Part shown: piece after piece, positions 1 through 24,280 of the stretch | How the letters are laid out: each line of letters starts with the position of its first letter | Numbering within the stretch: the stretch's first letter is position 1 | Assembly (NCBI GenBank): GCA_964035575.1 | Contig: OZ037839.1 | Coordinates: 1,860,001 to 1,924,000, forward strand | Length of the DNA: 64,000 nucleotides | Direction: 5' to 3' | Origin: Rhynchopus sp. YZ270_cl-10 | Lineage: Eukaryota | Notes under the pieces: generated by a model | Seen by the model: only the letters and a program-made list of their open reading frames with translations | The model's database searches: none | What the model was told of the DNA's origin: nothing | Program-made: the position numbers and the translations under genes

Positions 1-1565
1 ATGACACCAAATTCGTGATTGAGGTGGGTGAGAAGGACACAACGGAGACGATGCGGCAGAAGGTGGCGTCTGCAACAGGGTTGTGCGAAGACAGCTTCCG
101 CATGGGCTTCGGAGGGAAGGAGGAAGGAGAGGACATCACAGAACTGAGTGCTGGAGACACAGTCGTGTTGACGAAAACTACTAAGTACGCATCTGCTGAG
201 GAACTTCGTGCCTTGGGTGAGACAGACATTTCCGAAGCGAGGTTGGCGACTGTGAAGGATCCTGAGGTGGCTTCTCTGCTTCTTCAGGCGGAGGTTGCGA
301 CTGTTATTCCTGCTGGGTTCTTGAACGCAGCATCGTTTACGAGACTTGATCTCTCTGCTGTGTCTGTTGTGACGCAGATTCAGCACAACTTTCTCCACGG
401 GTGTGGGTCGGTGGAAACGGTTGACTTGTCGGGATTGTGCAACGTTACGCACATCGGGAATGACTGTCTCTATCGGTGCCCATCGTTGACAAGCCTTGAC
501 GTGTCAGGGTTCACTGGTGTGACGGTGATAGGGAACTCGTTCCTCCGCGGAAGTGGCATCACAGAGCTTGACTTGTCCGCGATGACGAGCGTGACGACGG
601 TTGGTGAATACTTTCTTCTCAACTGCAAGTCGTTGGAAAGTCTTGACATCTCAGGATGGCGCAGAGTCACGCACATTGAAGACGGCTTCCTCAAGAACTG
701 CACCTCGTTGGCAACCATTGATTTGTCAGCTTTTTGCAGCGTCACGAAGATCGGTTGTGACTTTCTCTTCAACTGCACGTCGTTGACCACCATCAGCTTT
801 TCAGGGATGACCAATGTGACGGACATTGGGAACAGCTTTTGTGCGGACTGCACCTCGTTGGAAAAGATTGATTTGACAGCACTGCACAGGGTTGTGAAGG
901 TGGAGCGCGACTTCCTTTGGAGGTGCACCTCGCTGACAAGTATCGACCTCTCAGCTTTTGCCAGTACCAGAGGCGTTGGGCACAGCTTTCTTGGTCACTG
1001 TTCATCATTGAAAACAGTTGATTTATCAGTGTTGCGCAGCATCGCACGCATTGAGTCAGGTTGGATGCAAAGGTGCTCCGCGTTGACAACAGCAGACTTC
1101 TCAGGACTGAGCAATGTTGAGTTCATTTGTGCACAGTTCCTGCAAGGGTGCACATCCTTGACCACGTTGGACATGTCAGGTATAGGCAGTGACACGCCGA
1201 TCCAGCACCACTTCCTGGACAACTGCAACGCACTCACAACAGTCGTCTTGCCAGGCAACATCGACATTCACGAGATGTCTCTCCCGAATGAATCCCAAAA
1301 GAACCATGGCTTTGGCGTCACGAAGACCTTCCATGCACGTGCGCGTGACATTTACGCAAGGTTTACGGAACAGTTCGGAGGTGTGCGGACAGAAGATCTG
1401 GTACGAACAGACGTGTCTGGAGATGCAAGACAATGTATTGCATTGAAAGCAGGACAAGAAGGAGAAGGTTTGATGCAAGCAGAAGAGGACGAGGACAAGC
1501 AGGAACTGGACAAACAGGAGCATGACAAGCAAGGGCATTTGGAGTGGCGGAGACACGCAGAGTGA
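1..1565 (+). CDS. Ubiquitin-like + LRR (BspA/LRR_5-like, 25-aa repeats) protein, copy 1; 5'-partial
   Basis: Begins inside the shared N-terminus (..DTKFVIEVGEKDTTETMRQKVASATGL..), then CTSLxxIDLS..VTxIGxxFL repeats. The ATG lies upstream of the window. Confidence 0.85.
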   Translation, partial: DTKFVIEVGEKDTTETMRQKVASATGLCEDSFRMGFGGKEEGEDITELSAGDTVVLTKTTKYASAEELRALGETDISEARLATVKDPEVASLLLQAEVATVIPAGFLNAASFTRLDLSAVSVVTQIQHNFLHGCGSVETVDLSGLCNVTHIGNDCLYRCPSLTSLDVSGFTGVTVIGNSFLRGSGITELDLSAMTSVTTVGEYFLLNCKSLESLDISGWRRVTHIEDGFLKNCTSLATIDLSAFCSVTKIGCDFLFNCTSLTTISFSGMTNVTDIGNSFCADCTSLEKIDLTALHRVVKVERDFLWRCTSLTSIDLSAFASTRGVGHSFLGHCSSLKTVDLSVLRSIARIESGWMQRCSALTTADFSGLSNVEFICAQFLQGCTSLTTLDMSGIGSDTPIQHHFLDNCNALTTVVLPGNIDIHEMSLPNESQKNHGFGVTKTFHARARDIYARFTEQFGGVRTEDLVRTDVSGDARQCIALKAGQEGEGLMQAEEDEDKQELDKQEHDKQGHLEWRRHAE

Positions 1566-1990
1566 CGCCGCCAGCTGCGCACTGCTCCCTCGAAGCTGCA
1601 CGACGCACACCCTCACAGGCCACTCCTCCCGCAAGCACTGCAGACAACAGAGCTGGAATCGCTGCTGCACAGCTTACTGGCAGCCCTACAATATCATGAC
1701 ATGTACGACAGTTTGTGTGGAGAGAGGCTTAGGTTGATCTCATAAACATTTCAAGTGCAATACGCGTTTTCGGATGTCACGAGTCTTACTGTTTCCCCTT
1801 CCCCCCTTTTGTGTCTCAGCACCTTACTTTTTCAATATGCGGGTTTTCGAGGGGTTTTTGGGTTTTTGGTTTTTCGGGTTTTTGGGGGGTTCCAAAAACA
1901 AAGAGAAAGGATGGATACGATGAACAAAGAGCAGGACGACAGCAAAATAGAGAACGGGGGCGTGTTTCATTTTTGTTTCACTGTTTCAAG

Positions 1991-2210
1991 GTAACCAAGC
2001 ACGAGTGGCTTTCGTTCATCTTATGAACCTTTCTTTCCATGCACTTGCAACTTATTCCCCAACCGGACGCTCCCATCCAGCAACACCACGCGCAGGTGCT
2101 GAGAGCTCCGTCTTCAACCTGCTGTACACCTTTCCTTCACGCTCTGCTTCAGCGCTTTGTCCATCCTGTCCCATATGCCCGAGGTGGGTAGCAACAGTTT
2201 TCCGTACACG
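1991..2210. repeat. ~220-bp short form of the element at 5669-7250
   Basis: Matches 5669-5697 and 7068-7250 with the internal ~1.37 kb replaced by cttatgaa. Related copies at 10186-10390, 9543/9636 and 12998. Confidence 0.75.
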
Positions 2211-2290
2211 TAGGCTCTGCACTTCCACTGCTGCGCGCATGCTCCTCTCAGACCTCGCAAGGTCCTGCTCATCTCATCGCCACGTACAGT

Positions 2291-3073
2291 GTGGACATCC
2301 GCAGGACCGCCACTGCACGCTTCCCTCTACATCCTTCCCGGGCCTGGCGTCTCACACCACGTAGACGGACACCCCGATGGGAGAGCACACGACAACTTCA
2401 CACTCATGTGGAGTCACCTCACTTCCTCTTCGACTCAAGGACACCTCTATACACGACCACACACATCTGTCTCACATCGTTTTCCACCATACACACGAAG
2501 CTTCCTGGGGAGGATTCGAGGCCAGAGGTGAACTACCTGCACCGCATCCTGAAGGGGAGGGTGGGGACGCAGGAGTTGGCGGTGCGGATCGCAGACTGCA
2601 AGGATGTGTCGCCACGTGAGGTGTACCGCTGTCTCAGCCCAGCGTTGCGTGAGGACAAGGTGTTGCTGCAGAAGCTTGCCCAACGGAGGAGACGCATCGT
2701 CCGTTTCTTCCCATCGCAGCTCTTTGACGATGAGGCCTTCGTGCGAGACGTGGTCCTCCCAGCACCCGGCATCGTCCTCAAGCTTCTTCCCCGCCCCGCA
2801 ACAGATCGGATCCACCCTTCAGTCAGGCGTGACGCCGTCGCGCTTCTGATTGCATCGGGGCACACAATCCCTGCGTTTCTTGCTGATGAGTATGACGACA
2901 CAGTGATGGAGAAGGCGAAGGGAAAGGAGAAGGGTGTGCAGAAGCATGGTGTGCCGATGAGACAGCGCCTCGGTCACCACGAACACTGCTACTGCTGCAC
3001 GAAGGTTGGGGCAAAGCAGGCGCAGGTCATCCGATCCATAAGAATATACCACAAAAAGCTGGAGAAGTCTTAG
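2291..3073 (+). pseudogene. Hypothetical ORF with DUF4116-like helical motifs, no early ATG (possible pseudogene)
   Basis: 260-codon open frame containing LSPALREDKVLLQKLAQ..IVRFFPSQLFDDEAFVRDVV. Starts at GTG; the nearest upstream ATG (2239) is out of frame. Confidence 0.35.
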
Positions 3074-3666
3074 CAGGTTTGCATGAGACTGATGTAAGCA
3101 CACAATCCGGTTCTCGGATGATTTATTGCACTGATTCCATGAAAAGCACGTTTGTGATGCAGACACAGCCCATCTTCAAACCCAACGTGTTCCAGCGCGA
3201 TAACGATGGTGATAAAGATGTGTGCACGAGAGGCACATTCATCTTACAAATTCTCAGTTCTTCTCTTCTTCTTTGCGAAGCGAGTTGTGGTCTGCCGACA
3301 TGAGCTTGTCCTTTTCTGCATTCTTGCCTTCTTTTGCGCCAGGACAAACGTGTTGACACAACTGCAATGTCACTGTCTAGTGAACGGCAAACGAACACGA
3401 TGCTCGAACTGAGCGCCTGCCCCCCACCCCCACAAGTGAGGCGCTTACACTTTGCACACCCCGTCTTCCAGATGACATCTGCAATGCATAAGCCAACGTT
3501 TGCCCCCTTTCAAGCATGATTAAGTTCAGCTTAAACATATTTTCCATTTCTCTGTTCTCACAACCGGCAAGTGAAACAAATAAGAAAGCTATTTTGTTGT
3601 ATCTTGCCTCCCTCCTCCTCCTTCTCAACACTTACCCCACAACAGAGCAACACTTCACTCGAAACA

Positions 3667-7250: not shown

Positions 7251-7303
7251 CCTCCTCCTTCTCAACACTTACCCCACAACAGAGCAACACTTCACTCGAA
7301 ACA

Positions 7304-9163
7304 ATGGAACTGTGTGTGCAGGGATATGATGATGAAACCAAATTCGTGATTGAGGTGGGTGAGAAGGACACAACGGAGACGATGCGGCAGAAGGTGGCGA
7401 CTGCAACAGGGTTGTGCGAAGACAGCTTCCGCATGGGCTTCGGAGGGAAGGAGGAAGGAGAGGACATCACAGAACTGAGTGCTGGAGACACAGTCGTGTT
7501 GACGAAAACTACTAAGTACCAATCTGTTGAAGCACTTCGTGCCTTGGGTGAGACAGACATTTCCGAAGCGAGGTTGGCGACTGTGAAGGATCCTGAGGTG
7601 GCTTCTCTGCTTCTTCAGGCGGAGGTTGCGACTGTTATCCCTGCCGGGTTCTTGTCGCAAGCATCGTTTACGAGACTTGATCTCTCTGCTGTGTCTGGGG
7701 TGACGCGAATTGAGGACAACTTCCTCTACGGGTGTGCGTCGGTGAAAACCGTTGACTTGTCGGGATTGTGCAACGTTACGCACATTGGCGATGCCTTTCT
7801 CTTGGGCTCCACATCGTTGACAAGCCTTGACGTGTCAGGGTTCACTGCTGTGACGGTGATACCGAAGGCATTCCTCCACGAAAGTGGCGTCACAGAGCTT
7901 GACTTATCCGCGATGACGAGTGTGACGACCGTTGGTACGTACTTTCTTCTCAACTGCAAGTCGTTGCAAAGTCTTAACATCTCAGAATGGCGCAGAGTCA
8001 CGCACATTGCGAATGGCTTCCTCTGGAACTGCACCTCGTTGACAACCATTGATTTGTCAGCCTTTTGCAGTGTCACGAAGATCGGATCCGATTTTCTCCG
8101 CAACTGCACGTCGTTGACCACCATCAGCTTTTCAGGGATGACCAATGTGACGGAACTTACGGACGGCTTTTGTAGGTACTGCACCTCGTTGACAACCATT
8201 GATTTGTCAGCTTTCTGCAGTGTCACGAAGATCGGCTGTGACTTTCTCTTCAACTGCTCGTCGTTGACCACCATCAGCTTTTCAGGGATGACCAATGTGA
8301 CGAAAGTTGGGAACAGCTTTTGTAGGGCCTGCACCTCGTTGGCAACGATTGACTTATCAGCACTGCACAGGGTTTTGAAGGTGGAGTACGACTTTCTTAT
8401 GGGCTGCACCTCGCTGACAAGTATCGACCTCTCAGCTTTTGGAAGTGCCAGAGGCATTGGGCACAGCTTTCTTAGTCAGTGCTCATCATTGAAAACAGTT
8501 GATTTATCAGTGTTGTGCAGCATCACACGCATTGAGTCAGGTTGGATGCAAGGGTGCTCCGCGTTGACAACAGCAGACTTATCAGGACTGAGCAATGTTA
8601 AGAACATTAATACACGGTTCCTGCAAGGGTGCACATCCTTGACCACGCTGGACATGTCAGGTATAGGCAGTGACACAATGATCCAGCATAACTTCCTGGA
8701 CAACTGCAACGCACTCACAACAATCGTCTTGCCAGGCAGCATCGACATTCACGAGATGTCTCTCCCGAATGAAGCCCAAAAGAACCATGGCACTGGCCTC
8801 ACGAAGACCTTCGATGCATGTGTGCGTGACATTTACGCAAGGTTTACGGAACAGTTCGGAGGTGTGCGGACAGAAGATGTAGTGCGAGCAGACGTGTCTG
8901 GAGATGCAAGACAATGTATTGCATTGAGGAGAAGGTTTGATGCAAGCACAAGAGGACGAGGACAAGCAGGAACTGGACGACAAACAGGAGCGTTACAAGC
9001 AAGGGCATTTGGAGGGTTAGGGTCCGGGACAGGCTGCAGCGATGTTGTGTCGAGCACAGTGAGGAACGGCCAGCAGAGGAAGTCAGTGGTTGAAGCCCGT
9101 CCGAAACGCAGTGCGCACCACAGGAGGATTCCCGCAAGTGGCAGAGACGAACACGCAGAGTGA
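7304..9163 (+). CDS. Ubiquitin-like + LRR protein, copy 3 (one extra LRR pair, altered C-terminal frame)
   Basis: ATG at 7304; 150-bp internal duplication; 14-bp deletion near 8926 shifts the frame of the tail. Confidence 0.85.
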   Translation: MELCVQGYDDETKFVIEVGEKDTTETMRQKVATATGLCEDSFRMGFGGKEEGEDITELSAGDTVVLTKTTKYQSVEALRALGETDISEARLATVKDPEVASLLLQAEVATVIPAGFLSQASFTRLDLSAVSGVTRIEDNFLYGCASVKTVDLSGLCNVTHIGDAFLLGSTSLTSLDVSGFTAVTVIPKAFLHESGVTELDLSAMTSVTTVGTYFLLNCKSLQSLNISEWRRVTHIANGFLWNCTSLTTIDLSAFCSVTKIGSDFLRNCTSLTTISFSGMTNVTELTDGFCRYCTSLTTIDLSAFCSVTKIGCDFLFNCSSLTTISFSGMTNVTKVGNSFCRACTSLATIDLSALHRVLKVEYDFLMGCTSLTSIDLSAFGSARGIGHSFLSQCSSLKTVDLSVLCSITRIESGWMQGCSALTTADLSGLSNVKNINTRFLQGCTSLTTLDMSGIGSDTMIQHNFLDNCNALTTIVLPGSIDIHEMSLPNEAQKNHGTGLTKTFDACVRDIYARFTEQFGGVRTEDVVRADVSGDARQCIALRRRFDASTRGRGQAGTGRQTGALQARAFGGLGSGTGCSDVVSSTVRNGQQRKSVVEARPKRSAHHRRIPASGRDEHAE

Positions 9164-12722: not shown

Positions 12723-13713
12723 CATGTACGACAGTTTGTGTGGAGAGAGGCTTAGGTTGATCTCATAAACATTTCAAGTGCAATACGCGTTTTCGGATGT
12801 CACGAGTCTTACTGTTTCCCCTTCCCCCCTTTTGTGTCTCAGCACCTTACTTTTTCGATATACGGGTTTTGGAGGGGTTTTTGGGTATTTTTGAGGGTTT
12901 TAAAAATAGAGAGAAAGCATGAATGCGATGAACAAAGAGCAGGACGACAGCAAAATAGAGAACGGGGGTGTGTTTCATTTTGTTTCACCCTTTCAAGGTG
13001 ACCAAGCACGAACCTTTCTTTGTATGTTGTTTATTCTCTGCCAGTTGTGAGCTGCATGACCGGAGTCGGTCCTAGCCCATGGGGTGGCCCCTTTGTTTGT
13101 GTTATGCTCCTGGTGTGAAGCGCCCGTCCTAGCCAGGGTGTGGGAAATCTCAGGAGTGCCTTTTATACGTCCTGTCTGCCATTTAGGTTGATACAAATTA
13201 TCGCGCTTCGAAAACATTATAGCCAATTTGGTACAGAATAAATGTGCATGTTTTTCTGGACCAACGCTTTTGAAAGCACACACAAAGAGAGCTCATTAAC
13301 CGAATGCAACGTACTACTTTTGGGGGGTTCGTGTTCAGCCTTTTTCAAGCTTTTGTATAGGGAATAGTTTCGAACTTCTCCCCTCTTTATCCCACAGGGT
13401 TCTCCTTTGCCAACCCCGAGTCTCTCGAGCATGTTATCCCCCCATTTTGTTGTATCTTGCCTCCCTCCTCCTCCTTCTCAACACTTACCCCACAACAGGG
13501 GAACACTTCACTCGAAACAATGGAACTGTGTGTGCAGGGATACGATGATGACACCAAATTCGTGATTGAGGTGGGTGAGAAGGACACAACGGAGACGATG
13601 CGGCAGAAGGTGGCGTCTGCAACAGGGTTGTGCGAAGACAGCTTCCGCATGGGCTTCGGAGGGAAGGAGGAAGGAGAGGACATCACAGAACTGAGTGCTG
13701 GCGACACAGTCGT

Positions 13714-13732
13714 GTTGACGAAAACTACTAAG
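13714..13732 (+). repeat. Left target-site duplication GTTGACGAAAACTACTAAG
   Basis: Identical to 22517-22535 and single-copy in the uninterrupted paralogues. The last G may belong to the element, so the TSD is 18 or 19 bp. Confidence 0.95.
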
Positions 13733-13815
13733 AGGGTGAGAGACGACGCGCCTCCACGGGGTACCCTCGGGAGACGCCCCCCTCCTCTATGGGGGGAGGC
13801 GTCTGCTAAAGCGCG
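13732..13815 (+). ncRNA. Candidate HDV-like self-cleaving ribozyme
   Basis: P1 GAGGGUG/UACCCUC, L3-like UCCACGG, GG after P1', P4 AGACGCC/GGCGUCU, J4/2 GCUAA, P2 CGCGC/GCGCG. Located exactly at the element 5' end. The P2/P3 register is imperfect. Confidence 0.65.
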
Positions 13816-13852
13816 GGGAAGAAGGACGGCGGCGGGGGGCAGCCTCGACGCG

Positions 13853-16800
13853 ATGTGCGGAGGGGCAGGTGGCCAAGGGGGGGAAAAGGGGGTGCTGCAG
13901 AAATACCTGAGGGGCTTCGACATGCGGGTAAAGGACGCAGGGGGGAACGGAGACTGCCAATTTAAGGCGGTCTCGATGGCTGTGCACGGAGACGCCACGG
14001 CGCACGGGGGGCTGAGGGAGATGGCGGTGGGGGTGTTGGAACGGGAAGCGGAGAATTGGGGTGAGCACGTTGACGGAGGACCGTCCGCCTACCGGAGGTA
14101 CTGCTCGGCGATGGCGAAGCAGGGGTCCTGGGGGGACCACCTGACCCTGAAGGCGTTGGCGGAGGTGCTGATGCGGGAGGTGTATGCCTTCTCGGTGAAG
14201 GATGGGGAGGTGCGTGTGCTGAAGGTGCACCCGAAGGAGAAGGGCAGCGGTGCAGCGGTGACGGTGGCGTACGTGGACGCATGCCACTACCTGTGCGTCC
14301 TCCCCACGAGCACGGGGGAAGAAGCCGCCGAAGACCGGGCCCGCAAGGCGATGGTGGGGGGTGCGTTGGAGGTGACGGAGAAGCCGTACACCGTGCCGCA
14401 ACCGCGAAACGATGCGAAGGCGGGGACGGAGGGGGGCTTCACCCAGGGGGGAGGGAAAAAGAAGACGACGGCAGCGCTGACATTGCTGCAATCGGAGTGG
14501 GTGGGATCGACGCTTGTGCCGTGGGGGGAGGTGGTGGATAAGTCGGAGGGGGTCTGTCTTGTGCCGCAGGGTAGAGAGGTAGAGGCAGAGGGGAAGATCG
14601 CGCGCACGCCGGGCGTGACGTGGGTGGGTTTCGGGTCCTTCCCGAAGTCTGGTGGGGAGAAGATGCAGTGCCCCATGGGTAAGCAGGGGAATGGGGGGAA
14701 GGTGAACGGGGCGGCGAGCACGGCCGTGTACGTGGTGGGGAGGCTGAGGCCGGGGAGAGGAAACGGGGGGAAGAAGGCGTCGGCGGCCGTCCAACTGGTG
14801 ACGGTGTTTGTGACGATGAGGCCGACAGCAGGACAAGCGCAGGACCTGGTGTCAGCGGGGAAGAAGATGCGTGCGGAGGTGGGGTGCAACCTCAACCGCC
14901 CACCATTGTGGCAGGAGGGTAAGCTGATCTCCTCGGTGGCCGACGTAAGGGAGGACGTAGCAGAGCGCTGCCTGAAGCAGAGTGGGAAGGGGGGTGTCTT
15001 CTTCCGGATGAGACGCGAGCAGTCGGAGCATCTGCCTGTCGTGTGGTTGGTGGACGGGGTGGGGCTAGAAGAGGCCCAGGGGCTGGCGACCCGGATGGGG
15101 GGATGGGGAGTGGCGGCGAGGTACGAGTCCCTGGGGATACGGGTGAAGAAGGAGGATCAGGAGCGTGCAAATGCGGCACTCATGCAGGAGGGAAAGGCGC
15201 CCGAAGGTCGATACGTGGTGTCCGGTTTCCCGTCGGGTACGTCCGGTGAAGCGGTGATGGAGTCGCTGGCAGGCGCAGGGTGGACGGTGACGCCGCTGCG
15301 GAGGCTGGAGGGATGGCGTTGGGTGGTGGGAGCGAAGCTGGATCCGCCGACGTGGGCCATGGACATGGAGGGGAACGGGAAGGGGCTGCTGATCCGCAAG
15401 GATGGGCATAAGGAGGGCGGGGGTAGGGCAACGGCTCCGGGTCCGGGGGCGAAACAGAAGGCCAAGGTACATACCGCACATGCGTCTGGTCCGACATTTG
15501 GTGCCCGGACGGCGCCGGCGGCGACAGCGCAGCACAACCGTGGCACTGGGCCCGACTACGGTTGGGTGTCCTGGGCTGCGCACGCACGCCAAGCAGCAAC
15601 AGCGCCAGCTGCAGCGAAGCCACCCACTACCACATCAAGGACACCTCCACCAACAACAACAACAACAACGAAGCAACGGACGCCGAAGGGTCAACCCCCA
15701 ATGACGTCGCCCGCCCCATCACCTGAGGACGCAGGCGAGAAGTGGGCGGAGTTGGAGCGCCGGATGGAGGAGAGGTTGGACCGCCTGGTGGGCGAGCGCC
15801 TCCAGACCCTGCTGCAGGAGACGGTGGCGTCGCTGACGGCCCAGTTGCGGGAAGAACGGGTGGAGCAACGGAAGGAGCAGCAGGTGTGGATGGCGGCCAT
15901 GCTGGAGCAAGTGGGCAAGCTCTGTTCCATGCCGAAGGAGGCCACGGCTGCTGCGAGAGAGGACGCCGCTGCTGCTGCTGCAGCCCTGAGGCAGGAGGAG
16001 GAGGAGGAGGCGAAGGCCGCCGCCGCTGCAGCCCTGAGGCAGCGTGAGGAGGAGGCGAAGGCCGCTGCTGCTGCAGTCCTCAAGCAGCGTGAGGAAGAGG
16101 TGAAGGCCGCCGCTGCTGCAGCCCTGAGGCAGCGTGAGGAGGAGGCGAAGGCCGCCGCTGCTGCAGCCCTCAAGCAGCGCGAGGAGGAGGTGAAGGCCGC
16201 TGCTGCTGCAGCCCTGAGGCAGGAGGAGGAGGTCGCCGCTGCCGCAGCCCTCAAGCAGCGCGAGGAGGAGGTGAAGGCCGCTGCTGCTGCAGCCCTGAGG
16301 CAGCGTGAGGAGGAGGAGAAGGCCGCCGCTGCTGCAGTCCTCAAGCAGCGTGAGGAAGCCGACGCTGCTGCTGCAATCCTCTGGCAGCAGGAGGAGGAAG
16401 CCGCCGCCGCCGCTGCTGCAGTTGCTGCTGAGAACGCCAGGCAGCGCGAGGGGGAGGCTGCTGCTACTACGGCCCCGACTGTCGCAGTGCCCACTGCAGC
16501 GCCCACAACACCCGAGATGCAGATGGCGGATGAATTGTTGGACACACTCCCAGACGGGAATGCCGAGGACGTGATGTCACCGGAGCCCGCAACGATGGCA
16601 GGTAAGCGGATACGTGCGGGAAATGGGTCCAGTGAGGTTGAGGAGCTGAGCCCGCGCCGCAGGAGGAGGAGGGCTGACACCATCCGTGGAAAGCCGGGGG
16701 TAGTCGTAGAAGTCGCCGAAGCACGGAACCGGTCGCGGTCAGCACCGCCCAGGGACACATCGCCGACTGCGGACGTTGCTGGCGCCGGTGATGTGGAGGT

Positions 16801-17440
16801 AGTGGTGGCGTCCCCGAAGAAGAAGAAGAAACGCAGGAACATTGTGGCCGCTGAGAAACGACGGGAGGCACTACGGGCAGCACAGGAAGAAGCGGCGGCA
16901 AAGAAGGAGAGACGTGCTGCAGCAGTGCAGGCACAACGTGAGCAGGAGCAAGGGGAGAACGCCGGCGCAGGGACCCCCGCACCCACGACACCAGACGCCG
17001 AGGCACGGATGGACGACGCCGACATGGCACTGCCGGTGCAGACATCGCCAGACTGTGCGGCTGTCGAGGAGGACGCGGAGACCTCGCCAGCTCCCAGAGT
17101 GCCGGTGGCGCCACCTGCCGTGACCCTGGCGGGCAAGCGGGAAGACCGCAGTGAGTCCGGTGAGACGGTGGCGCTGCTGAGTCCGCCGCGCAGGATGCGG
17201 ACGGAAGTCCCCGCAAAAGAGCAGGCGGAGGGGAACGAGAAGAACGAGGAGTCGTACGGGAACGCAGTGCTGGAGGCTGGCGACTCCATGGAGTACTGCG
17301 AGGAGGGAGGCAACGGCGCAGCCATCCCGGTGACTGTCGTGAAGGTAGCGGGGGACGTCATCGAGATCGCGTTTCGTCCCGTCCAGGGACTAGACAACAG
17401 GTTGGTAGGCCGCAACACCCTGCGCGATGTGGGGCGGTGA
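13853..17440 (+). CDS. Retrotransposon ORF1: OTU-like cysteine protease, central domain, Ala/Glu/Arg-rich coiled-coil repeats
   Basis: GNGDCQFKAVS..SWGDHLTLKALAE..CHY OTU motifs. First ATG inside the element is at 13853. The frame is also open from the host ATG at 13520. Confidence 0.85.
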   Translation: MCGGAGGQGGEKGVLQKYLRGFDMRVKDAGGNGDCQFKAVSMAVHGDATAHGGLREMAVGVLEREAENWGEHVDGGPSAYRRYCSAMAKQGSWGDHLTLKALAEVLMREVYAFSVKDGEVRVLKVHPKEKGSGAAVTVAYVDACHYLCVLPTSTGEEAAEDRARKAMVGGALEVTEKPYTVPQPRNDAKAGTEGGFTQGGGKKKTTAALTLLQSEWVGSTLVPWGEVVDKSEGVCLVPQGREVEAEGKIARTPGVTWVGFGSFPKSGGEKMQCPMGKQGNGGKVNGAASTAVYVVGRLRPGRGNGGKKASAAVQLVTVFVTMRPTAGQAQDLVSAGKKMRAEVGCNLNRPPLWQEGKLISSVADVREDVAERCLKQSGKGGVFFRMRREQSEHLPVVWLVDGVGLEEAQGLATRMGGWGVAARYESLGIRVKKEDQERANAALMQEGKAPEGRYVVSGFPSGTSGEAVMESLAGAGWTVTPLRRLEGWRWVVGAKLDPPTWAMDMEGNGKGLLIRKDGHKEGGGRATAPGPGAKQKAKVHTAHASGPTFGARTAPAATAQHNRGTGPDYGWVSWAAHARQAATAPAAAKPPTTTSRTPPPTTTTTTKQRTPKGQPPMTSPAPSPEDAGEKWAELERRMEERLDRLVGERLQTLLQETVASLTAQLREERVEQRKEQQVWMAAMLEQVGKLCSMPKEATAAAREDAAAAAAALRQEEEEEAKAAAAAALRQREEEAKAAAAAVLKQREEEVKAAAAAALRQREEEAKAAAAAALKQREEEVKAAAAAALRQEEEVAAAAALKQREEEVKAAAAAALRQREEEEKAAAAAVLKQREEADAAAAILWQQEEEAAAAAAAVAAENARQREGEAAATTAPTVAVPTAAPTTPEMQMADELLDTLPDGNAEDVMSPEPATMAGKRIRAGNGSSEVEELSPRRRRRRADTIRGKPGVVVEVAEARNRSRSAPPRDTSPTADVAGAGDVEVVVASPKKKKKRRNIVAAEKRREALRAAQEEAAAKKERRAAAVQAQREQEQGENAGAGTPAPTTPDAEARMDDADMALPVQTSPDCAAVEEDAETSPAPRVPVAPPAVTLAGKREDRSESGETVALLSPPRRMRTEVPAKEQAEGNEKNEESYGNAVLEAGDSMEYCEEGGNGAAIPVTVVKVAGDVIEIAFRPVQGLDNRLVGRNTLRDVGR
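15961..16430 (+). repeat. 45-bp coding minisatellite (KAAAAAALRQREEEx) in ORF1
   Basis: About ten imperfect units visible in both DNA and protein. Confidence 0.85.
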
Positions 17441-20400
17441 CGGTGTGGTGCGGTGGAAGGGTACGGCACAGGATTGGCTTCTTCGTGCGTAGTTGGAGAA
17501 CGAGACGTTTTTGTGAAAACTGTCTCCCCAACAAGGGGTCAGCATCGTTTGCGCTCTGCGGGCTGTATGCTGTCGGGGACAAGGGGTAAGGGTAGAACGC
17601 GAAGGGGGGTGGGGCGAGGGGTCGGACACAGGGTGCGTCGAGGGAGGCGACGAGGGGCGTTTTTGGGCAGGGGGTCACTGCTGACATGTGGAGACGTGGA
17701 GGAGCATCCGGGTCCGTCGACCATGTCGCTTGGCACGGCAAACGTGACGTCTCTGAGGGCACACCCTGCGGTGGGGGAGTGGGATGTGGACGTTTGTGCT
17801 CTGCAGGAGGTGCGCCTCACAGAAGAAGAGATGAAGGGGGCAGCAAACGACGTGAAGGGGTATGGTGCCAAGCAGCTTCTCTTTGGTGCCCCTTGCAGAC
17901 GAAGCCAGGGATCAGACCCTCTGCGCACGCGCACGCAGAATGGTGGAGTTGCGATCATGACGTGCGCTGACATACCGACCAGAGCAGTACCGCCACAATG
18001 TGCCCAACAAGCGTGGAACGAATGCCGCTTTACGCATGCGCAGGTGGCATATGGGAGCGGGGGACGTAACATCTCTGTGTTCTCGTTTTATGGCGTGTGT
18101 GCTGACAGCGACCGCACGGAGCAACTCCTGACAGGCATCTTTGAAGAAGCAGCCAGCCTTGGGGACATACCGGTGTTCATTGCCGGAGACTTCAACGTAG
18201 AGGCTAACGAAAGTCTAGCCATTCGAGCGGCCATCTCCTCCGGCAAATGGGTTGATGCGGCAGATACCTACGCACAGCAGTTGGGTAAGGCAGCAGAGAA
18301 CACATGCTATACCTCCACATCGTCTGGCAGACGTATCGACTTGGTGCTGGCGAACCACGTGGCTGCCCCTGCGATCTCCAAAGTGGTGGTCTGGAAAGAG
18401 AGCTGCCTCCCGGTACACAGACCGGTGGTGTTGACGTTAGACCTGACGCGATACGAGCAGAAGGCACCGCAGGCACGCCCTCCCCTTTCTTTGATCGGCG
18501 ACGACTGGACGAAATGGCCGGCGAAGAAGGAGAAGGAGCTTGCAGCGAAGGTGATGCAGGAGAACGCTGCCCCTGAAGCCGACCTGACGAAGATGTCGGT
18601 TGAAGATCGCTGGGCACGCTTCTGCAAGATTGCGGAGGACTACCTGCTGAAGAGAGGTGCTGCAGACTCAGACCCGAAGCAACAACGCCACAGGGGGAGA
18701 GGGGAGGTGCAACCCGACGTTCTCCGACATCGGACGGCCCGCATGGACTGCGACACGCCGGATGCTGTGAACCTGGAGACGGCTCAACTGCAGAAGACAT
18801 GTCGTCAGATGGAGCAGCTCATTGGTGATCGGAGGAAGCGCTTCGGTCAGCCATCTGCAGAATCGTTGAACGAACGGCAGCTGTGGGCGAAAATCCGCAA
18901 GAAGAAGCATCTACTGAAGAGTGACACCTGGGACCTCGACCTTCCTGGGATAGAGGCGTTGTGTGGGCTCCTTGGCTGCTTGAAGAAGAGGGGTTTTGTC
19001 CTGCTGGAGCAACGGCGTCGGGCCCGCATCAAGGAATGGCGCCGCACAATGAAGGAACACATGAAGGTGAACCCAGCGAAGGTGTTCTCGTTCCTGCGGA
19101 AGGCTACGTCGTCACACACCACGTTCCTGAAACGGGAGGACGGCACGGTTACAGCTAACCTCCAGGAGATGGATGAACTGCTCATGGATGACCGTGCTTG
19201 GGGTGGGGTGTTCCGGATGTACGACGATTCCGAAGAACCTGCGTGGACGACGTTCTTTGATAGGTTCAAGGAACACATTCCTGAAGGGACCCCTTGTGTA
19301 TGCGAACCCCTGACCGCCGACGACCTCCGTACGACCATCGGCAAGATGAAGCGGAAAAAGGCGGCAGGCCTCGATGGGTGGAGGGTGGAGGAGCTGAAGG
19401 AACTGCCTTTGACACTGCTGGAGGAACTCGCGCGCTGCCTGAACCTGATCGAGGATACTGGGAACTGGCCCAGGGTGATTGCGAGGGCGTTGGTGGTGCT
19501 CATCCCCAAAGGAGAAGGCGAGGAGCCCCTGAAGCAGCGACCCATTACCATCACCAGTGTGATGTACAGGTTATGGGCGGCGACTCGACTCCGCAAAGTG
19601 GCGACGTGGCAGGAATCCTGGATTCACGAGCGGCAACACGGCTTCCGGAACAAACACGGAACCGAAGACCTGCTGTGGTTTCTCTGTGCGAAGATGGAGG
19701 AGGCTCTGATAGACGACACACCTATCTATCTAGCCTCCTTCGACTATCAGAAGTGCTTTGACCGTGTTCCCCAAGAGATCATGTTCCAGCTCGTCGAACG
19801 GTTGGGTCTTCCCGACAACATGATGCGCCCCATCCGGGGTATATACAAGAAGCTGGGGAGGCGTTTCAAACTTCCGGCAGGTCTTGGCAAAGAATGGTTT
19901 GCGACGAATGGTATCCTCCAAGGATGCCCACTGAGCGTAATCTTCCTGAATGCGCTGGTGGCGGTGTGGATGAACGGGGTGGAGAAGGAAACGGGCACGC
20001 AGGGGCTGGCGTATGCTGACGACACCAACCTCCTGACGAAGACCCTCGACCAGCTGCGAGCGGGTGTCGCCTTCACCGGACACTTTGCAGACTTGACGGG
20101 ACAACGCGTCCACGCGGGGAAGAGCACGTGGCAGAGCAACCGTCCTGATGAAGAGGAAACTGTGCAGATGAACGGCGCGGATCTTACTCGCGTCGAGAAG
20201 TCGGAGTGCCTGGGGGCGACGGTGCAGGCCCGACAGGCTGGGACGCCCACGCTCCCGACGAAGCTGGAAGACACCATCGACGCATGCGGACCGCTAGCAG
20301 GTAAGGTGGGATGCCTCCCGCTGACTCAAGGTGAGAAAGCAGGCATCATGCAGGCTGCAGTGATGTCGAAATCTGTGTACGGTATCACGGTGCAGGACCC

Positions 20401-22447
20401 ACCTGGGAAATACGTGAACAGTCTTGCAACTGCAGTGGAGAAAGGGGTCCACGGCGTGAACAAGATGAACCGAAGAAGCGTACCGGTCATGCTGAATGTC
20501 TTCGAGAAAGGCCATCTGCTCGACCCCTCGGTGGCATTCGACTACAGAAGGATCATGACGTGGGCGGCGATGATACGCAAATCGGATGAGATCTGTTTGC
20601 TGGTCGAAAAGTGCAGGTCACGTGCGAAAGCGAAGCAGGCGAAGACTGGAGGACCCATCGGGTTGATTGCGCGAGCCCTCAGCCGCCTTGCGTGGTCATG
20701 GATAGACACGACAAAAGTGAAAACGCACGATGGGAGCATCGTTGATGTGAAGACAGTAAGCTTGGGCAGACTGGGCCACGTTGTGCGAGAACGGATGTTC
20801 TTCATTCGACTCTCCCGTACGAAGACGACTGCGAAGGCCAATGGCAAAGGCAGAGCTAACCTGAAGGGTATTGAAGCGGGGGTGGATAAGGAGAAAACCC
20901 TTGCTCTCACCCGAAGCAAAACTTTGACGGATTACGAGGCGGGGACGCTGCGACACATTGTAGCTGACGGTGCGATAACGGGGGTGCGACTTGCGAGAGC
21001 GCGCATACGGGACTCGGCCATCTGCGTGCACTGCGAAGCGGGGGTGGACGAAAATCACAAACACTTGTGGTGGGAATGTGAAGCATGGAGTAGCATTCGT
21101 GCGGAGTACCCCTTGCTGTTGGACATTGACAGAACGACCTGGCCAAACTGTCTCGCTATCTGCGGCATGTGCACACCGGACACACCTTTGGAATGCGCCC
21201 GTGTTGCAGACCTGCAGAAGATGATGGTGCGCATCCTCATCGCACGCTCCAAGTGGAGCAGACCGGAAGCGGCGAACCCGCGACTGCAAGAAGACCGATA
21301 CCCGTGGACGTGGGCGCCGGAGTTGGACACGACGACGCAACACGCGAACAGTTTGGTGGACTACACCCCCCTGAAAAGGAGGTGGCCGTATGGACGTGCG
21401 CTGCTGCTGGCGTTTGCCTCCTGGCTGGGTGGTTTACAATGGAGCGACGAAGCTGGACGTGAAGTCTCCCACATGGAGCTGCTCATCGACTTCGAGGTTG
21501 CCACAGGGATGGACATCCGACCTGGGGACAAGACCGGCAGAATAGCGCCGAAGCTGAAGCAGCCGAGGGATGGGACTGGGGAAGAAGTCAACAATGGGGG
21601 GGAAGACGACGGGAGTGAGGAAGACGACGATGATGACGACGTGGTGCCAGTAGCGCTGGTCCACAGAGAAATGGCGAAGACGACCACCTTTGGGCATATG
21701 TTGGCTTCACTCAGAACCTTTTCGGAGAGCTCTCTCCATCCGGGGAAGGTGAAGGTAACGCATGTTCTCGCTTCGTTTGGGGCGAACGCCATCACAGGCA
21801 TCGACCGCCGTCCTATCTTTGCCGGCGGAGAAGAAACGTTGAAGGCATTGCGTGCGCTATACGATGCTGGTGTGGCGTACCGTCTGCAACGCAGCTCCGA
21901 AGGCATGTCTGAGGCGGAGCTCCGTGGTGGCGATAGAGCGAGAGGTACATGGATGGGGGAGTATTCTGCTGAGACGGCGTACCCCTCCACAGAAGTTAGG
22001 GGCAGGAGGGCACTACCATTCATCCAGCGGGCTGAACAGGAGACATCTGCGCATGCTCGCTACCGGCACCATGAGCACGTGCGTCCAGGGGACGCACCCG
22101 TGAAGGCACCTGAAGGAGCGGTTCCGATCTTCCAGTTTGCGATATGTGTGCTGCACCGGAAGACGAAGTGTGATGCCTGCTCGAAGAACGCCCAGGCAGA
22201 CCTGATGCATTGCTGCTTTGCGCACCACTCCAACGACGACGGGTTACCGATCCGACACGAAGCATGCACTAAGCATAGACTCTCGAGGTGCGGGAACTGT
22301 GTGCAAGAGAAGAGTACGCTGGATCACTGCTGCCGCCGCCACCACGACACCTCGAAGGGGCGACAGACGACGCTGGGAGGCTTCTTCAAGAAGAAGCAGA
22401 CGAAGCAGAAGGATGGGCACAGCAGGGGCGGTGATGGACTTATGTAA
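17441..22447 (+). CDS. Retrotransposon ORF2: 2A-like peptide, AP endonuclease, reverse transcriptase, CCHC-like finger, C-terminal Cys/His repeats
   Basis: APE: TANVTSL, LQEVR, GDFN, RIDLVL. RT: AGLDG, RPITI, QHGFR, DYQKCFDRV, GILQGCPLS, YADD. Finger: CVHC..HLWWEC. Same frame as ORF1; true start unresolved. Confidence 0.93.
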   Translation, partial: RCGAVEGYGTGLASSCVVGERDVFVKTVSPTRGQHRLRSAGCMLSGTRGKGRTRRGVGRGVGHRVRRGRRRGAFLGRGSLLTCGDVEEHPGPSTMSLGTANVTSLRAHPAVGEWDVDVCALQEVRLTEEEMKGAANDVKGYGAKQLLFGAPCRRSQGSDPLRTRTQNGGVAIMTCADIPTRAVPPQCAQQAWNECRFTHAQVAYGSGGRNISVFSFYGVCADSDRTEQLLTGIFEEAASLGDIPVFIAGDFNVEANESLAIRAAISSGKWVDAADTYAQQLGKAAENTCYTSTSSGRRIDLVLANHVAAPAISKVVVWKESCLPVHRPVVLTLDLTRYEQKAPQARPPLSLIGDDWTKWPAKKEKELAAKVMQENAAPEADLTKMSVEDRWARFCKIAEDYLLKRGAADSDPKQQRHRGRGEVQPDVLRHRTARMDCDTPDAVNLETAQLQKTCRQMEQLIGDRRKRFGQPSAESLNERQLWAKIRKKKHLLKSDTWDLDLPGIEALCGLLGCLKKRGFVLLEQRRRARIKEWRRTMKEHMKVNPAKVFSFLRKATSSHTTFLKREDGTVTANLQEMDELLMDDRAWGGVFRMYDDSEEPAWTTFFDRFKEHIPEGTPCVCEPLTADDLRTTIGKMKRKKAAGLDGWRVEELKELPLTLLEELARCLNLIEDTGNWPRVIARALVVLIPKGEGEEPLKQRPITITSVMYRLWAATRLRKVATWQESWIHERQHGFRNKHGTEDLLWFLCAKMEEALIDDTPIYLASFDYQKCFDRVPQEIMFQLVERLGLPDNMMRPIRGIYKKLGRRFKLPAGLGKEWFATNGILQGCPLSVIFLNALVAVWMNGVEKETGTQGLAYADDTNLLTKTLDQLRAGVAFTGHFADLTGQRVHAGKSTWQSNRPDEEETVQMNGADLTRVEKSECLGATVQARQAGTPTLPTKLEDTIDACGPLAGKVGCLPLTQGEKAGIMQAAVMSKSVYGITVQDPPGKYVNSLATAVEKGVHGVNKMNRRSVPVMLNVFEKGHLLDPSVAFDYRRIMTWAAMIRKSDEICLLVEKCRSRAKAKQAKTGGPIGLIARALSRLAWSWIDTTKVKTHDGSIVDVKTVSLGRLGHVVRERMFFIRLSRTKTTAKANGKGRANLKGIEAGVDKEKTLALTRSKTLTDYEAGTLRHIVADGAITGVRLARARIRDSAICVHCEAGVDENHKHLWWECEAWSSIRAEYPLLLDIDRTTWPNCLAICGMCTPDTPLECARVADLQKMMVRILIARSKWSRPEAANPRLQEDRYPWTWAPELDTTTQHANSLVDYTPLKRRWPYGRALLLAFASWLGGLQWSDEAGREVSHMELLIDFEVATGMDIRPGDKTGRIAPKLKQPRDGTGEEVNNGGEDDGSEEDDDDDDVVPVALVHREMAKTTTFGHMLASLRTFSESSLHPGKVKVTHVLASFGANAITGIDRRPIFAGGEETLKALRALYDAGVAYRLQRSSEGMSEAELRGGDRARGTWMGEYSAETAYPSTEVRGRRALPFIQRAEQETSAHARYRHHEHVRPGDAPVKAPEGAVPIFQFAICVLHRKTKCDACSKNAQADLMHCCFAHHSNDDGLPIRHEACTKHRLSRCGNCVQEKSTLDHCCRRHHDTSKGRQTTLGGFFKKKQTKQKDGHSRGGDGLM
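17663..17716 (+). other. 2A/StopGo-like peptide LGRGSLLTCGDVEEHPGP
   Basis: 16 of 18 residues identical to T2A (EGRGSLLTCGDVEENPGP), directly upstream of the endonuclease domain. Confidence 0.85.
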
Positions 22448-22516
22448 CATCACCTCCACGATGTATTGTATCACCTATCTCGGATAGGGGTGCATGCATC
22501 GAAAACGGGCCCCCAC

Positions 22517-22535
22517 GTTGACGAAAACTACTAAG
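22517..22535 (+). repeat. Right target-site duplication
   Basis: GTTGACGAAAACTACTAAG followed by the continuation of the LRR gene. Confidence 0.95.
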
Positions 22536-24280
22536 TACCAATCTGTTGAAGCACTTCGTGCCTTGGGTGAGACAGACATTTCCGAAGCGAGGTTGGCGAC
22601 TGTGAAGGATCCTGACGTGGCTTCCCTGCTTCTTCAGGCGGAGGTTGCGACTGTTATTCCGCACTACTTCTTGCGCAATGCATCGTTTACGAGACTTGAT
22701 CTCTCTGCTGTGTCTGGGGTGACGCGAATTTATGACAACTTTCTCCACGGGTGTGCGTCGGTGGAAACGGTTGACTTGTCGGGATTGTGCAACGTTACGC
22801 ACATTGGGAATGACTGTCTCTATCGGTGCCCATCTTTGACAAGCCGTTACGCACATTGCGGACAACTTCCTCCATCACTGCACCTCGTTGGCAACCATTG
22901 ATTTGTCAGCTTTTTGCAGTGTCACGAAGATCGGCTCCGAATTTCTGCGCAACTGCACGTCGTTGACCACCATCAGCTTTTCAGGGATGACCAATGTGAC
23001 GGACATTGGGCACAGATTTTGTGTGGACTGCACCTCGTTGGAAACGATTGACTTATCAGCACTGCACAGGGTTGTGACGGTAGGTAACGACTTTCTGAAG
23101 AGGTGCACCTCGCTGAGAAGTGTCGACCTCTCAGCTTTTGCCAGTACCAGAGGCGTTGGGCACTACTTTCTTAGTCACTGTTCATCATTGAAAACAGTTG
23201 ATTTATCAGTGTTGCGCAGCATCACACGCATTGCTGCAAGCTGGATGCAAGGGTGCTCCGCGTTGACAACAGCAGACTTATCAGGACTGAGCAATGTTGA
23301 GTTCATTTGTGCACTGTTCCTGCAAGGGTGCACATCCTTGACCACGCTGGACATGTCAGGTATAGGCTGTGATACAATGATCCATCACGACTTCCTGGAC
23401 AACTGCAACGCACTCACAACAGTCGTCTTGCCAGGCAACACCGACATTCACGAGATGTCTCTCCCGAATGAAGCCCAAAAGAACCATGGCACTGGACTCA
23501 CGAAGACCTTCGATGCATGTGTGCGTGACATTTACGCAAGGTTTACGGAACAGTTCGGAGGTGTGCGGACAGAAGATCTGGTACGAACAGACGTGTCTGG
23601 AGATGCAAGACAATGTATTGCATTGAAAGCAGGACAAGAAGGAGAAGGTTTGATGCAAGCACAAGAGGACGAGGACAAGCAGGAACTGGACGAATGAGGA
23701 TATTTCGAGGGTTTGGGGCAGGATAAACAGGGGGTCTGGGGGGAACGGGGACACTTCGGCAAAAGTATTGAAGCACCTTTTTGTTTTGGATATCTGTAAG
23801 GACTTTGGGAAAACTTGCCACAGTATGCATGCTGTTGCCGGCACGGCATCTGGGACGCAGATTGCCACAGTTTGATTCTGTGCCATACCAATCATATACA
23901 GTTGGAACATGCGGTATAAACATCGGAAGTGAAGAAGCAAAGTGAGGCATTTGATTTCGATAAGCTGCTGGTTTTTTCGAGTGCATGCGCTAAGGGACGC
24001 GTCATGACAGCTATGTCCACCACTCAGCAGTTCCAACATCGGCACCAAACACGCCGAGACCACCGGGACCAGAATGGATTCTTTGTCCAGAATGGAAGCT
24101 CGAGAATGTATGTGTAGGAGGACTGCATGGTTCGGGTCCACCCCATACACCAAGGTACACTCAGTAACACTGTCCTGAGATGGATTCAACTCAACTTTCC
24201 CCCACAAACCTCTCCCTCTTCCCCTCCCGTTACCGTCACCACGACGCACAGACGACTAACAACACTCAGTAACGCAAACA

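What the first reader, a model, noticed from the sequence alone, without database searches (positions are those of the whole stretch)
1..23697. Ubl-LRR family with hypervariable residues in a near-constant framework (immune-receptor-like)
Seen: the Ubl domain and LRR scaffold are almost identical across six copies, while the residues flanking each FL differ. First repeat: AG-FL-NA, AG-FL-CR, AG-FL-SQ, AG-FL-WG, HY-FL-RN, NN-FL-YK; the pattern recurs in most repeats with whole codons replaced. Inference: strong diversifying selection or targeted diversification of one binding surface, in a cytosolic receptor (no signal peptide) that could route targets to the proteasome through its Ubl.
Basis: partly seen in the sequence, partly recalled or inferred. 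Interest (0 to 1): 0.85.

Follow-up and report, generated by a model that had tools for sequence, protein, structure and literature searches.

The report
Protist ubiquitin-LRR recognition repertoire
A single-celled eukaryote, probably a diplonemid, carries well over a hundred genes that join a near-constant ubiquitin-like domain to bacterial-type leucine-rich repeats in which four residues per repeat are under positive selection, which likely makes an inherited repertoire of intracellular sensors for foreign proteins, and a retrotransposon repeatedly inserts into these genes at one codon.

Summary
Across the six, amino-acid identity is 96% in the Ubl, 88% in the LRR frame and 35% at the four positions flanking FL. 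These positions are under positive selection: omega 3-7, surviving multi-nucleotide and recombination-tolerant models. No mutator signature: their synonymous rate is not raised and there is no adenine bias. Copies are mosaics. At least 147 held relatives share the architecture, many with NLS-like or CaaX-like tails. A LINE encoding an OTU protease sits right behind the Ubl in 13 members. Best reading: a germline-encoded intracellular non-self sensor family; no ligand or expression shown. This scan noted hypervariable LRR families in other protists, none with Ubl in my five answered look-ups.

The parts
3..1565 (+). C1, Ubl-cap-LRR gene, first ten codons cut off by the window start; open frame of 520 aa
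3667..5256 (+). C2, complete 529-aa gene: Ubl (aa 1-69), three-helix cap (70-105), 13 TpLRR/BspA-type repeats, acidic tail
7304..9163 (+). C3, 619 aa; two extra repeats from a 150-bp internal duplication; different, basic C-terminal tail
10776..12722 (+). C4, 648 aa; four extra repeats (two further copies of the 150-bp unit), one in-frame codon deletion
13520..13732 (+). C5 5' part: the Ubl, left in frame with ORF1 of the inserted element
13714..13732 (+). 19-bp target-site duplication, left copy (right copy 22517-22535)
13733..22516 (+). Full-length non-LTR retrotransposon: ORF1 with OTU protease domain (to 17440); ORF2 (17441-22447) with a 2A-like motif, AP endonuclease and reverse transcriptase
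22517..23697 (+). C5 3' part: cap and LRRs, with a 170-bp frameshifting deletion near 22844; pseudogene
58983..61661 (+). C6, 892 aa, outside the stated interval; LRRs followed by a long GFGG-repeat tail

Best explanation
These genes are members of a large, inherited family in which four residues per leucine-rich repeat are under positive selection, and they likely act as intracellular sensors that bind foreign proteins and would hand them, through the conserved ubiquitin-like domain, to a shared but unidentified host partner. Shown: architecture (Ubl, helical cap, TpLRR/BspA-type solenoid), positive selection at repeat positions 17, 18, 21, 22, conservation of Ubl and cap, mosaic copies, repeat-number changes, gene death, varied tails. 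Inferred: new specificities arise by point change fixed by selection plus unequal crossing-over and gene conversion that swap repeats in register; the four positions stack into one stripe along the solenoid, on the side that is convex in canonical LRRs; NLS-like and CaaX-like tails post members to nucleus and membranes; the ligands are proteins of endosymbionts, viruses or engulfed microbes; the Ubl works through a surface other than the Ile44 patch, most likely recruiting a ubiquitin-system factor that neutralises or degrades the bound protein. The LINE is read as a parasite of this multicopy family, not as its diversifier.
For: Site models on 6 copies x 432 codons: M2a vs M1a LRT 150.8, 15.6% of sites at omega 6.7; with double/triple hits LRT 56.1, omega 5.3. 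17 of 20 sites with posterior >0.95 fall in the 52 columns at 17/18/21/22; 0 in 108 Ubl+cap columns; 0 in 48 exposed strand columns. With their own synonymous rate these columns give omega 4.2 (alpha 0.91; LRT 15.4) or 3.2 without multi-hits. Tree-free pairwise likelihood with a separate divergence per pair and repeat: omega 3.8, composite LR 42.9, not reached by 18 of 18 neutral hot-spot simulations with a random tree per repeat; lowest of 25 bootstraps 1.56. Holds without C5 (LRT 127.1 / 42.6) and on C1-C4 alone (70.5 / 19.6). Same positions vary in 95 other paralogues. 147 distinct Ubl+cap+3 or more LRR proteins among 262 held hits. Nearest neighbour changes from repeat to repeat; PHI-like p 0.02. 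Variable residues are mostly N, S, G, H, R, D, A, Y, a set typical of binding surfaces (own knowledge). Tails: 43 NLS-like and 17 CaaX-like of 106 by pattern match; two B-box-like domains precede the Ubl in some (weak Pfam hits).
Against: No ligand, partner, localisation or expression is shown. The Ile44 patch is absent, so the link to the proteasome has no direct support. The neighbouring unrelated five-copy array also gives a weak signal (LRT 13.0, 5.9 with multi-hits), so part of any LRT here can come from conversion. The null simulations were less diverged than the data (0.39-0.56 vs 0.68 differing codons at these sites). Synonymous rate at adjacent positions 14 and 16 is about three times the frame, and C-ending codons exceed the framework-based expectation (88 vs 63 of 170; 81 expected from two other genes); both leave room for a local mutational or patch-conversion process. 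The four positions are the free 'x' positions of this repeat class and also vary between repeats of bacterial relatives. The face assignment rests on secondary structure and a published consensus, not on coordinates.
Confidence: 0.5

Rival explanations
1. The family polices internal parasites (retrotransposon or other selfish-element proteins); the LINE that inserts behind the Ubl and encodes an OTU deubiquitinase is the opponent, disabling sensors and countering ubiquitin signalling.
For: 13 insertions at one codon separating Ubl from LRR; OTU domain above Pfam cut-off in ORF1; many members carry NLS-like tails.
Against: Targeting a multicopy sequence is a known safe-haven strategy that needs no conflict (PMC4640811, passages). 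In the element-centred search only 2 of 5 truncated copies were joined to a Ubl. No binding data.
Confidence: 0.15
2. The proteins are offensive effectors delivered into prey or host cells, where tails address them to nucleus or membrane and the variable stripe tracks prey targets.
For: Repeat type shared with signal-peptide-like bacterial proteins, one from a Holosporales bacterium; LRR proteins lie beside secretion-system genes in diplonemid endosymbionts (10.1101/719211, passages).
Against: The window copies begin with the Ubl fold and show no hydrophobic N-terminus; no delivery route is known.
Confidence: 0.12
3. Neutral variation: the four positions are merely tolerant surface sites, and gene conversion plus multi-nucleotide changes mimic positive selection.
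For: They are the non-conserved positions of the TpLRR consensus (PMC2946307, passages); strong mosaicism; weak signal in the control array.
Against: Omega stays above 1 with multi-hit rates, a private synonymous rate and a tree-free model; other exposed positions (2, 3, 5, 7) are conserved (tied omega 0.5).
Confidence: 0.08
4. Kin, mating-type or self/non-self recognition between cells of the same species after contact or fusion.
For: Hypervariable repeat stripes serve allorecognition in fungi (own knowledge; also named in earlier scan notes).
Against: Over a hundred dispersed paralogues with varied tails fit a broad repertoire better than an allelic key; no death or signalling domain found among the top 25 Pfam families of 89 members.
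Confidence: 0.07
5. A targeted mutator (DGR-like or somatic), possibly using the LINE's reverse transcriptase, rewrites the codons beside FL.
For: Half of differing codon pairs differ at 2-3 bases; many variable codons end in C; raised synonymous rate at positions 14 and 16; a reverse transcriptase lies within the array.
Against: Variable columns: A 42 of 56, C 32 of 50, G 28 of 39, T 7 of 11, so no adenine specificity; C-ending codons match host usage for those residues (88 vs 81 expected). Window self-comparison shows no invariant template copy (rest of the genome not available). 6 of 8 variant motifs read from loose ends in two runs match stored paralogues. The RT is a LINE ORF2 with AP endonuclease.
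Confidence: 0.08

Closest known systems
BspA-like / TpLRR families of Trichomonas and Entamoeba (PMC2843621, passages read)
   Same: Same repeat class (Pfam LRR_5 above cut-off; best fold match Bacteroides LRR 4fs7); massive lineage-specific expansion; CaaX tails as in some Entamoeba members.
   Different: N-terminal Ubl and helical cap; 25-residue FLxxC repeat; 'ubiquitin' does not occur in that paper's main text; those proteins are treated as surface or secreted adhesins.
Ectocarpus LRR-ROCO and NB-ARC-TPR candidate immune receptors (PMC3341825, passages read)
   Same: Four positively selected sites per repeat, omega about 3.5-6, repeat shuffling, clustering, gene birth and death.
   Different: There one exon per repeat, a GTPase or NB-ARC domain, and selected sites on the concave face; here intronless frames, only a Ubl, and selected sites outside the LxxLxL strand.
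[quoted passage not shown]
   Same: Huge young LRR family physically tied to a non-LTR retrotransposon.
   Different: REP lies in or near introns and most genes are reported under purifying selection; here the element cuts the coding sequence at one codon and the sites are positively selected.
Nematode and plant F-box / MATH-BTB adaptors under positive selection (Thomas 2006; recalled, paper not held)
   Same: Constant ubiquitin-system module plus fast-evolving substrate-binding domain, proposed to target foreign proteins.
   Different: No F-box or BTB found; the constant module is a Ubl lacking the Ile44 patch.
UBL proteasome adaptors (Rad23, Dsk2, midnolin; functions recalled)
   Same: N-terminal non-conjugatable beta-grasp domain (Z 9-10 to Dsk2 and Rad23 UBL, 8.8 to midnolin).
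   Different: Single-copy conserved genes; here a hypervariable multigene family; hydrophobic patch missing; no UBA detected.
Target-specific APE-type non-LTR retrotransposons (R1, Tx1) and 2A-bearing Ingi/L1Tc (PMC4640811, PMC4494074, PMC3708506, passages read)
   Same: Fixed site in a multicopy sequence, target duplication, 5' truncations; 2A-like motif just before the AP endonuclease.
   Different: Targets listed there are rRNA, SL, tRNA and snRNA genes, transposons, microsatellites and telomeres; here a protein-coding family. Ingi elements lack ORF1; this one has an OTU-bearing ORF1, and His replaces Asn in the 2A motif. Clade not determined.

Membership tests
TpLRR / BspA-type LRR proteins | Repeat consensus LxxLxLxxxLxxIgxxAFxx(C/N)xx, 23-25 residues | tested here: met
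   25-residue LxxIDLSxxxxVTxIgxxFLxxCxS; Pfam LRR_5 100.5 bits vs cut-off 27.7; 88 of 89 aligned members hit LRR_5; consensus from PMC2946307
TpLRR / BspA-type LRR proteins | Solenoid fold like solved TpLRR proteins | tested here: met
   Model pLDDT 91 with two short strands per repeat; best matches 4fs7, 4gt6, 4h09
TpLRR / BspA-type LRR proteins | Surface exposure or secretion (BspA adhesins) | not testable with these tools
   No signal-peptide predictor available; by inspection the frame starts with the Ubl fold; an upstream exon cannot be excluded
UBL proteasome shuttles (Rad23/Dsk2) | N-terminal ubiquitin fold without C-terminal di-Gly | tested here: met
   Z 10.7, rmsd 1.7 A over 67 residues to ubiquitin; Pfam ubiquitin in 79 of 89 members at E up to 1; domain ends LTKTTK
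UBL proteasome shuttles (Rad23/Dsk2) | Leu8-Ile44-Val70 hydrophobic patch | tested here: not met
   Ile44 aligns to Gly45; family: G60% S30% there, T88% at the Val70 position (placed by hand from the sequence alignment), F/Y/C at Leu8
UBL proteasome shuttles (Rad23/Dsk2) | UBA domain binding ubiquitin chains | tested here: inconclusive
   The three-helix cap resembles a UBA only by eye; no UBA among the top 25 Pfam families, 0 PDB sequence hits; the fold search was filled by the Ubl
NLR / ROCO-type immune receptors | NB-ARC, NACHT or ROC-COR switch domain | tested here: not met
   None in the window copies or among the top 25 families of 89 members
NLR / ROCO-type immune receptors | Positive selection on periodic exposed repeat residues | tested here: met
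NLR / ROCO-type immune receptors | Selected residues on the LxxLxL beta-sheet (concave face) | tested here: not met
   0 of 48 columns at strand positions 2, 3, 5, 7 pass 0.95; selected sites follow the second strand. Curvature itself was not measured.
Diversity-generating retroelement target | Adenine-specific substitutions | tested here: not met
Diversity-generating retroelement target | Invariant template repeat and DGR-type RT | tested here: inconclusive
   No template in the window; the RT is a LINE ORF2; the rest of the genome was not available
F-box/LRR SCF adaptors | F-box domain | tested here: inconclusive
   No F-box among Pfam hits shown; the cap's fold is unresolved
Target-specific non-LTR retrotransposon | Independent insertions at one position of a multicopy sequence, with target duplication | tested here: met
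   19-bp duplication; 13 members joined to the element right behind the Ubl, same strand, with different 5' ends (11 firm, 2 weak), plus four 3' junctions
Target-specific non-LTR retrotransposon | Most genomic copies lie in the target | tested here: inconclusive
   2 of 5 truncated copies from an element-centred search carry the Ubl, 2 have other N-termini, 1 shows no flank; genome not available

The most novel reading that the evidence does not exclude
A diplonemid has built an antibody-like intracellular repertoire from a repeat shared with bacterial endosymbiont proteins, reading ligands with the face opposite the canonical LRR binding sheet, tagging members for nucleus, membranes or nuclear pore, and coupling them to a ubiquitin-system partner without the Ile44 patch; a deubiquitinase-carrying retrotransposon has evolved to cut these genes exactly between effector and sensor, as counter-defence or as a motor of module swapping.
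Probability: 0.2. Interest if true: 0.85.

Novelty: new variant of a known kind. Interest (0 to 1): 0.62.

Why it matters
Immunity in heterotrophic protists is largely undescribed. A small, soluble, intronless family with a fixed scaffold and a mapped selected stripe makes ligand discovery directly testable, and would show that recognition repertoires can be built without NB, kinase or F-box modules and on a non-canonical LRR face. A LINE that targets one codon of a protein-coding recognition family would extend the known targets of site-specific retrotransposons. The general pattern (hypervariable repeats in an expanded family) is known, which limits the surprise.

Tried and rejected
Whole genome: none held, so dN/dS rests on six window copies; other paralogues were available only as proteins. 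Expression: no RNA holder listed; two guessed-RNA runs laid nothing; no evidence either way. Summed contig depth was not used as copy number. One bin of C2 had no cover in two runs at 99%; uninformative. DGR-like NNC pattern: explained mostly by residue choice and host codon usage. NG86 counting gave omega 1.43 and raised dS for positions 14, 16-18, 21, 22 pooled; superseded by likelihood models that separate 14/16. The free-alpha fit did not move from its start and was redone. Cap as UBA or F-box: no support; not excluded. OTU1 UBX-like match in 21 of 89 members (best E 0.009): too weak to claim Cdc48/p97 binding. Module swaps at the element's site: some members carry the window-type Ubl joined near aa 68-72 to another cap and LRR type, but change points are spread; inconclusive. 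Relatives elsewhere: none confirmed among 495 metagenome and 91 viral pattern matches; ESM Atlas gave only sub-0.9 ubiquitin+DUF285 clusters, a lead for a convergent architecture. The DUF2855 neighbour did not reveal the lineage (best named hits thraustochytrids at 43-44%). A structural re-alignment of the full-length model did not run, and model coordinates are not exposed, so the binding face was not measured. No complex prediction was run: no candidate partner was available. Literature searches that found no description of this family; for the element 74, 82; the library lacks most subscription papers.
Full report
Observation. The window holds six copies of one intronless reading frame on the + strand: C1 (3-1565, cut by the window start), C2 (3667-5256), C3 (7304-9163), C4 (10776-12722), C5 (13520-23697, broken) and C6 (58983-61661, outside the stated interval). 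All six first-repeat motifs are as quoted. C5 is interrupted right after the Ubl by an 8.8-kb retrotransposon with a 19-bp target duplication and has a 170-bp frameshifting deletion. C3 and C4 have two and four extra repeats from duplication of a 150-bp unit; I kept one unit of each for the codon alignment. Mean amino-acid identity is 96% in the Ubl, 93% in the cap, 88% at other LRR positions and 35% at positions 17, 18, 21, 22 of the repeat LxxIDLSxxxxVTxIgxxFLxxCxS.

Anatomy. The model of C2 (pLDDT 91) shows a beta-grasp domain, three short helices and a solenoid with two short strands per turn. The N-terminal domain matches ubiquitin at Z 10.7, rmsd 1.7 A although its Pfam score is under the cut-off. 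The repeats are TpLRR/BspA type. The main strand is at positions 3-5 and a second at 14-15; the variable residues follow the second strand and flank the invariant FL. By the consensus in PMC2946307 (passages read) positions 3-5 form the concave sheet and this segment corresponds to the convex-side variable segment. Equal positions in successive turns stack, so the four residues should form one stripe.

Selection. On 432 codons, M2a beats M1a by 150.8 (omega 6.7 on 15.6% of sites), and by 56.1 (omega 5.3) when double and triple changes are allowed (my own implementation of MG94-type models). 17 of 20 sites above 0.95 are in the 52 columns at 17/18/21/22; none in the 108 Ubl+cap columns or the 48 exposed strand columns. 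Giving these columns their own synonymous rate leaves omega 4.2 with alpha 0.91 (multi-hit) or 3.2 with alpha 1.67, and omega = 1 is rejected (LRT 15.4, 20.1). Because the copies are mosaics (C5 is nearest C1 in repeats 2 and 11, C2 in 5 and 8, C4 in 6; PHI-like p 0.02 on 78 sites), I also used a tree-free pairwise likelihood: omega 3.8, alpha 1.2, composite LR 42.9; 0 of 18 neutral hot-spot simulations with free recombination between repeats reached it (highest 35.0, at omega 0.4), and 25 bootstraps stayed at or above 1.56. Leaving out any one repeat gives 4.0-5.1. The result stands without C5 and on C1-C4 alone. The choice of positions is confirmed independently in 95 other paralogues. Against: the simulations were less diverged than the data; the neighbouring five-copy array gives LRT 13.0, or 5.9 with multi-hits; synonymous rate at positions 14 and 16 is about threefold raised, which I cannot fully explain and which suggests short conversion patches or hitch-hiking.

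Mutator or selection. No base is favoured at variable nucleotide columns, and the excess of C-ending codons (88 of 170) is close to the 81 expected from two unrelated window genes, though above the 63 expected from the framework. Six of eight variant motifs read from loose ends in runs X1 and X3, two studies, match stored paralogues; two do not, but only part of the family is held. Contigs drop rare variants, so somatic change is not excluded.

Family. The protein search gave 1081 hits at E up to 0.001; of the 120 listed, 114 are labelled ENA and 3 are withheld as window-linked, on contigs of 0.19-2.2 Mb, several on the window's own contig. That they come from one assembly is my inference from shared contig lengths. 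106 of 120 carry the cap motif. With the exhaustive search on the first 115 residues (186 hits, 150 listed), 147 distinct proteins of 262 held have Ubl, cap and three or more repeats. Tails by pattern: 43 NLS-like, 17 CaaX-like, 46 neither of 106; tail type largely follows the tree of the N-terminal region (quick tree). Four tested members have B-box-like domains in front (weak Pfam hits). C6 ends in GFGG repeats. All 10 divergent hits checked were unnamed ENA proteins. The one named carrier of this Ubl subtype is a Rhynchopus euleeides protein without LRRs (34%, E 2e-8); with the single-strand, intronless gene layout this suggests a diplonemid host, which is an inference. The same FLxxC repeat occurs in two bacterial proteins with signal-peptide-like starts, one from a Holosporales bacterium; Holosporales endosymbionts of diplonemids encode LRR proteins near secretion genes (10.1101/719211, passages; its Table S1 was not seen). 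Direction of transfer was not tested.

The Ubl. Ile44 aligns to Gly or Ser in 90% and Val70 to Thr in 88% of 114 members, and there is no di-Gly end, while R28, K30, E39, D40 and LSAGD are nearly invariant. So the domain is conserved for some partner, but not through the patch that proteasome receptors usually bind (own knowledge). Proteasome routing remains possible through another surface but has no support here.

The retrotransposon. ORF1 carries an OTU protease domain and is in frame with the C5 Ubl; ORF2 has AP endonuclease and RT, preceded by GDVEEHPGP, one residue off the 2A consensus in PMC3708506 (passages). Of 34 family hits whose match stops before residue 108, 11 run into this element right behind the Ubl, on the same strand and at different element positions (two of them weak matches); four others begin with the element's 3' end at the same spot. 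Four weak matches at other places (E 0.001-0.04) were not counted. An element-centred search found 5 truncated copies, 2 of them Ubl-joined at this codon, giving 13 events in all. This shows a strong preference, not exclusivity. Targets listed in PMC4640811 and PMC4494074 (passages) are RNA genes, transposons and simple repeats; Tetrahymena REP favours LRR-gene introns (PMC6564038, passages).

Mechanism. Most likely (0.5) a germline repertoire of intracellular sensors: selection fixes new residues on one stripe, crossing-over and conversion shuffle repeats, tails place members in compartments, and the Ubl couples binding to a shared partner. Rivals: policing of selfish elements (0.15), effectors against prey (0.12), neutral variation (0.08), a mutator (0.08), kin recognition (0.07).

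Comparison and novelty. It works like Ectocarpus ROCO receptors (PMC3341825, passages) and nematode F-box families (recalled), but is a member of neither; by repeat it belongs to the TpLRR/BspA class (PMC2843621, passages). FNIP-repeat families also vary off the sheet, at its edge, and some are fused to F-box domains (PMC9525666, passages). Searches found no description of a Ubl-TpLRR family; the Diplonema papillatum genome paper has no 'LRR' or 'ubiquitin' in its main text (PMC10161547, term search; supplements not read and may bear on this). Earlier scan notes report hypervariable LRR families in other protists and fungi, none on this sequence, genome or architecture. Verdict: real, positively selected, a new variant of a known kind; interest 0.62.

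Noticed in passing
window 13733-22516; P0250, P0277, P0293, P0303, P0307, P0310, P0321, P0328, P0329, P0331, P0386, P0388: OTU- and 2A-like-bearing LINE inserted at the same codon behind the Ubl in 13 family members; deserves its own study as a retrotransposon targeting a protein-coding family.
   Followed up: partly
P0241, P0288, P0290, P0333 and P0287, P0295, P0356: Two further recurrent breakpoints: four members end near residue 92-93 in the same short foreign peptide, and three run into another shared peptide; probably other elements inserting into the family.
   Followed up: no
window 60480-61600: C6 ends in about 370 residues of GFGG-rich repeats resembling nucleoporin FG repeats (recalled resemblance); P0311 has a shorter similar tail.
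   Followed up: no
window 24482-41695: Five-copy tandem array of a 486-aa gene with no Pfam match; clustered differences and a weak positive-selection signal (LRT 13.0; 5.9 with multi-hits); used as control.
   Followed up: partly
P0031, P0053, P0304, P0311, P0323: Members with B-box-like domains and a helical region before the Ubl-LRR, a TRIM-like layout without a RING (weak Pfam hits for the four tested).
   Followed up: partly
P0027, P0029, P0069: Window-type Ubl joined near residues 68-72 to the cap and repeats of other subfamilies: module swaps close to the element's target site.
   Followed up: partly
window 56560-57678: DUF2855 gene whose best named relatives are thraustochytrid and bacterial proteins at 35-44% identity; possible horizontal acquisition.
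   Followed up: partly
window 47115-47584: Perfect tandem repeat of a short unit (reads MQLCSYAA in one frame) upstream of an 1839-aa gene without Pfam match.
   Followed up: no
window 5697-6840 and 2192-3070: Spacers between copies carry different inserts: a reverse-strand frame with a Cys-rich stretch between C2 and C3, and a 293-codon frame without Pfam match between C1 and C2.
   Followed up: no
ESM Atlas clusters: Ubiquitin + DUF285 repeat proteins form several clusters: a possibly convergent Ubl-plus-bacterial-repeat architecture in other organisms (scores under 0.9).
   Followed up: no
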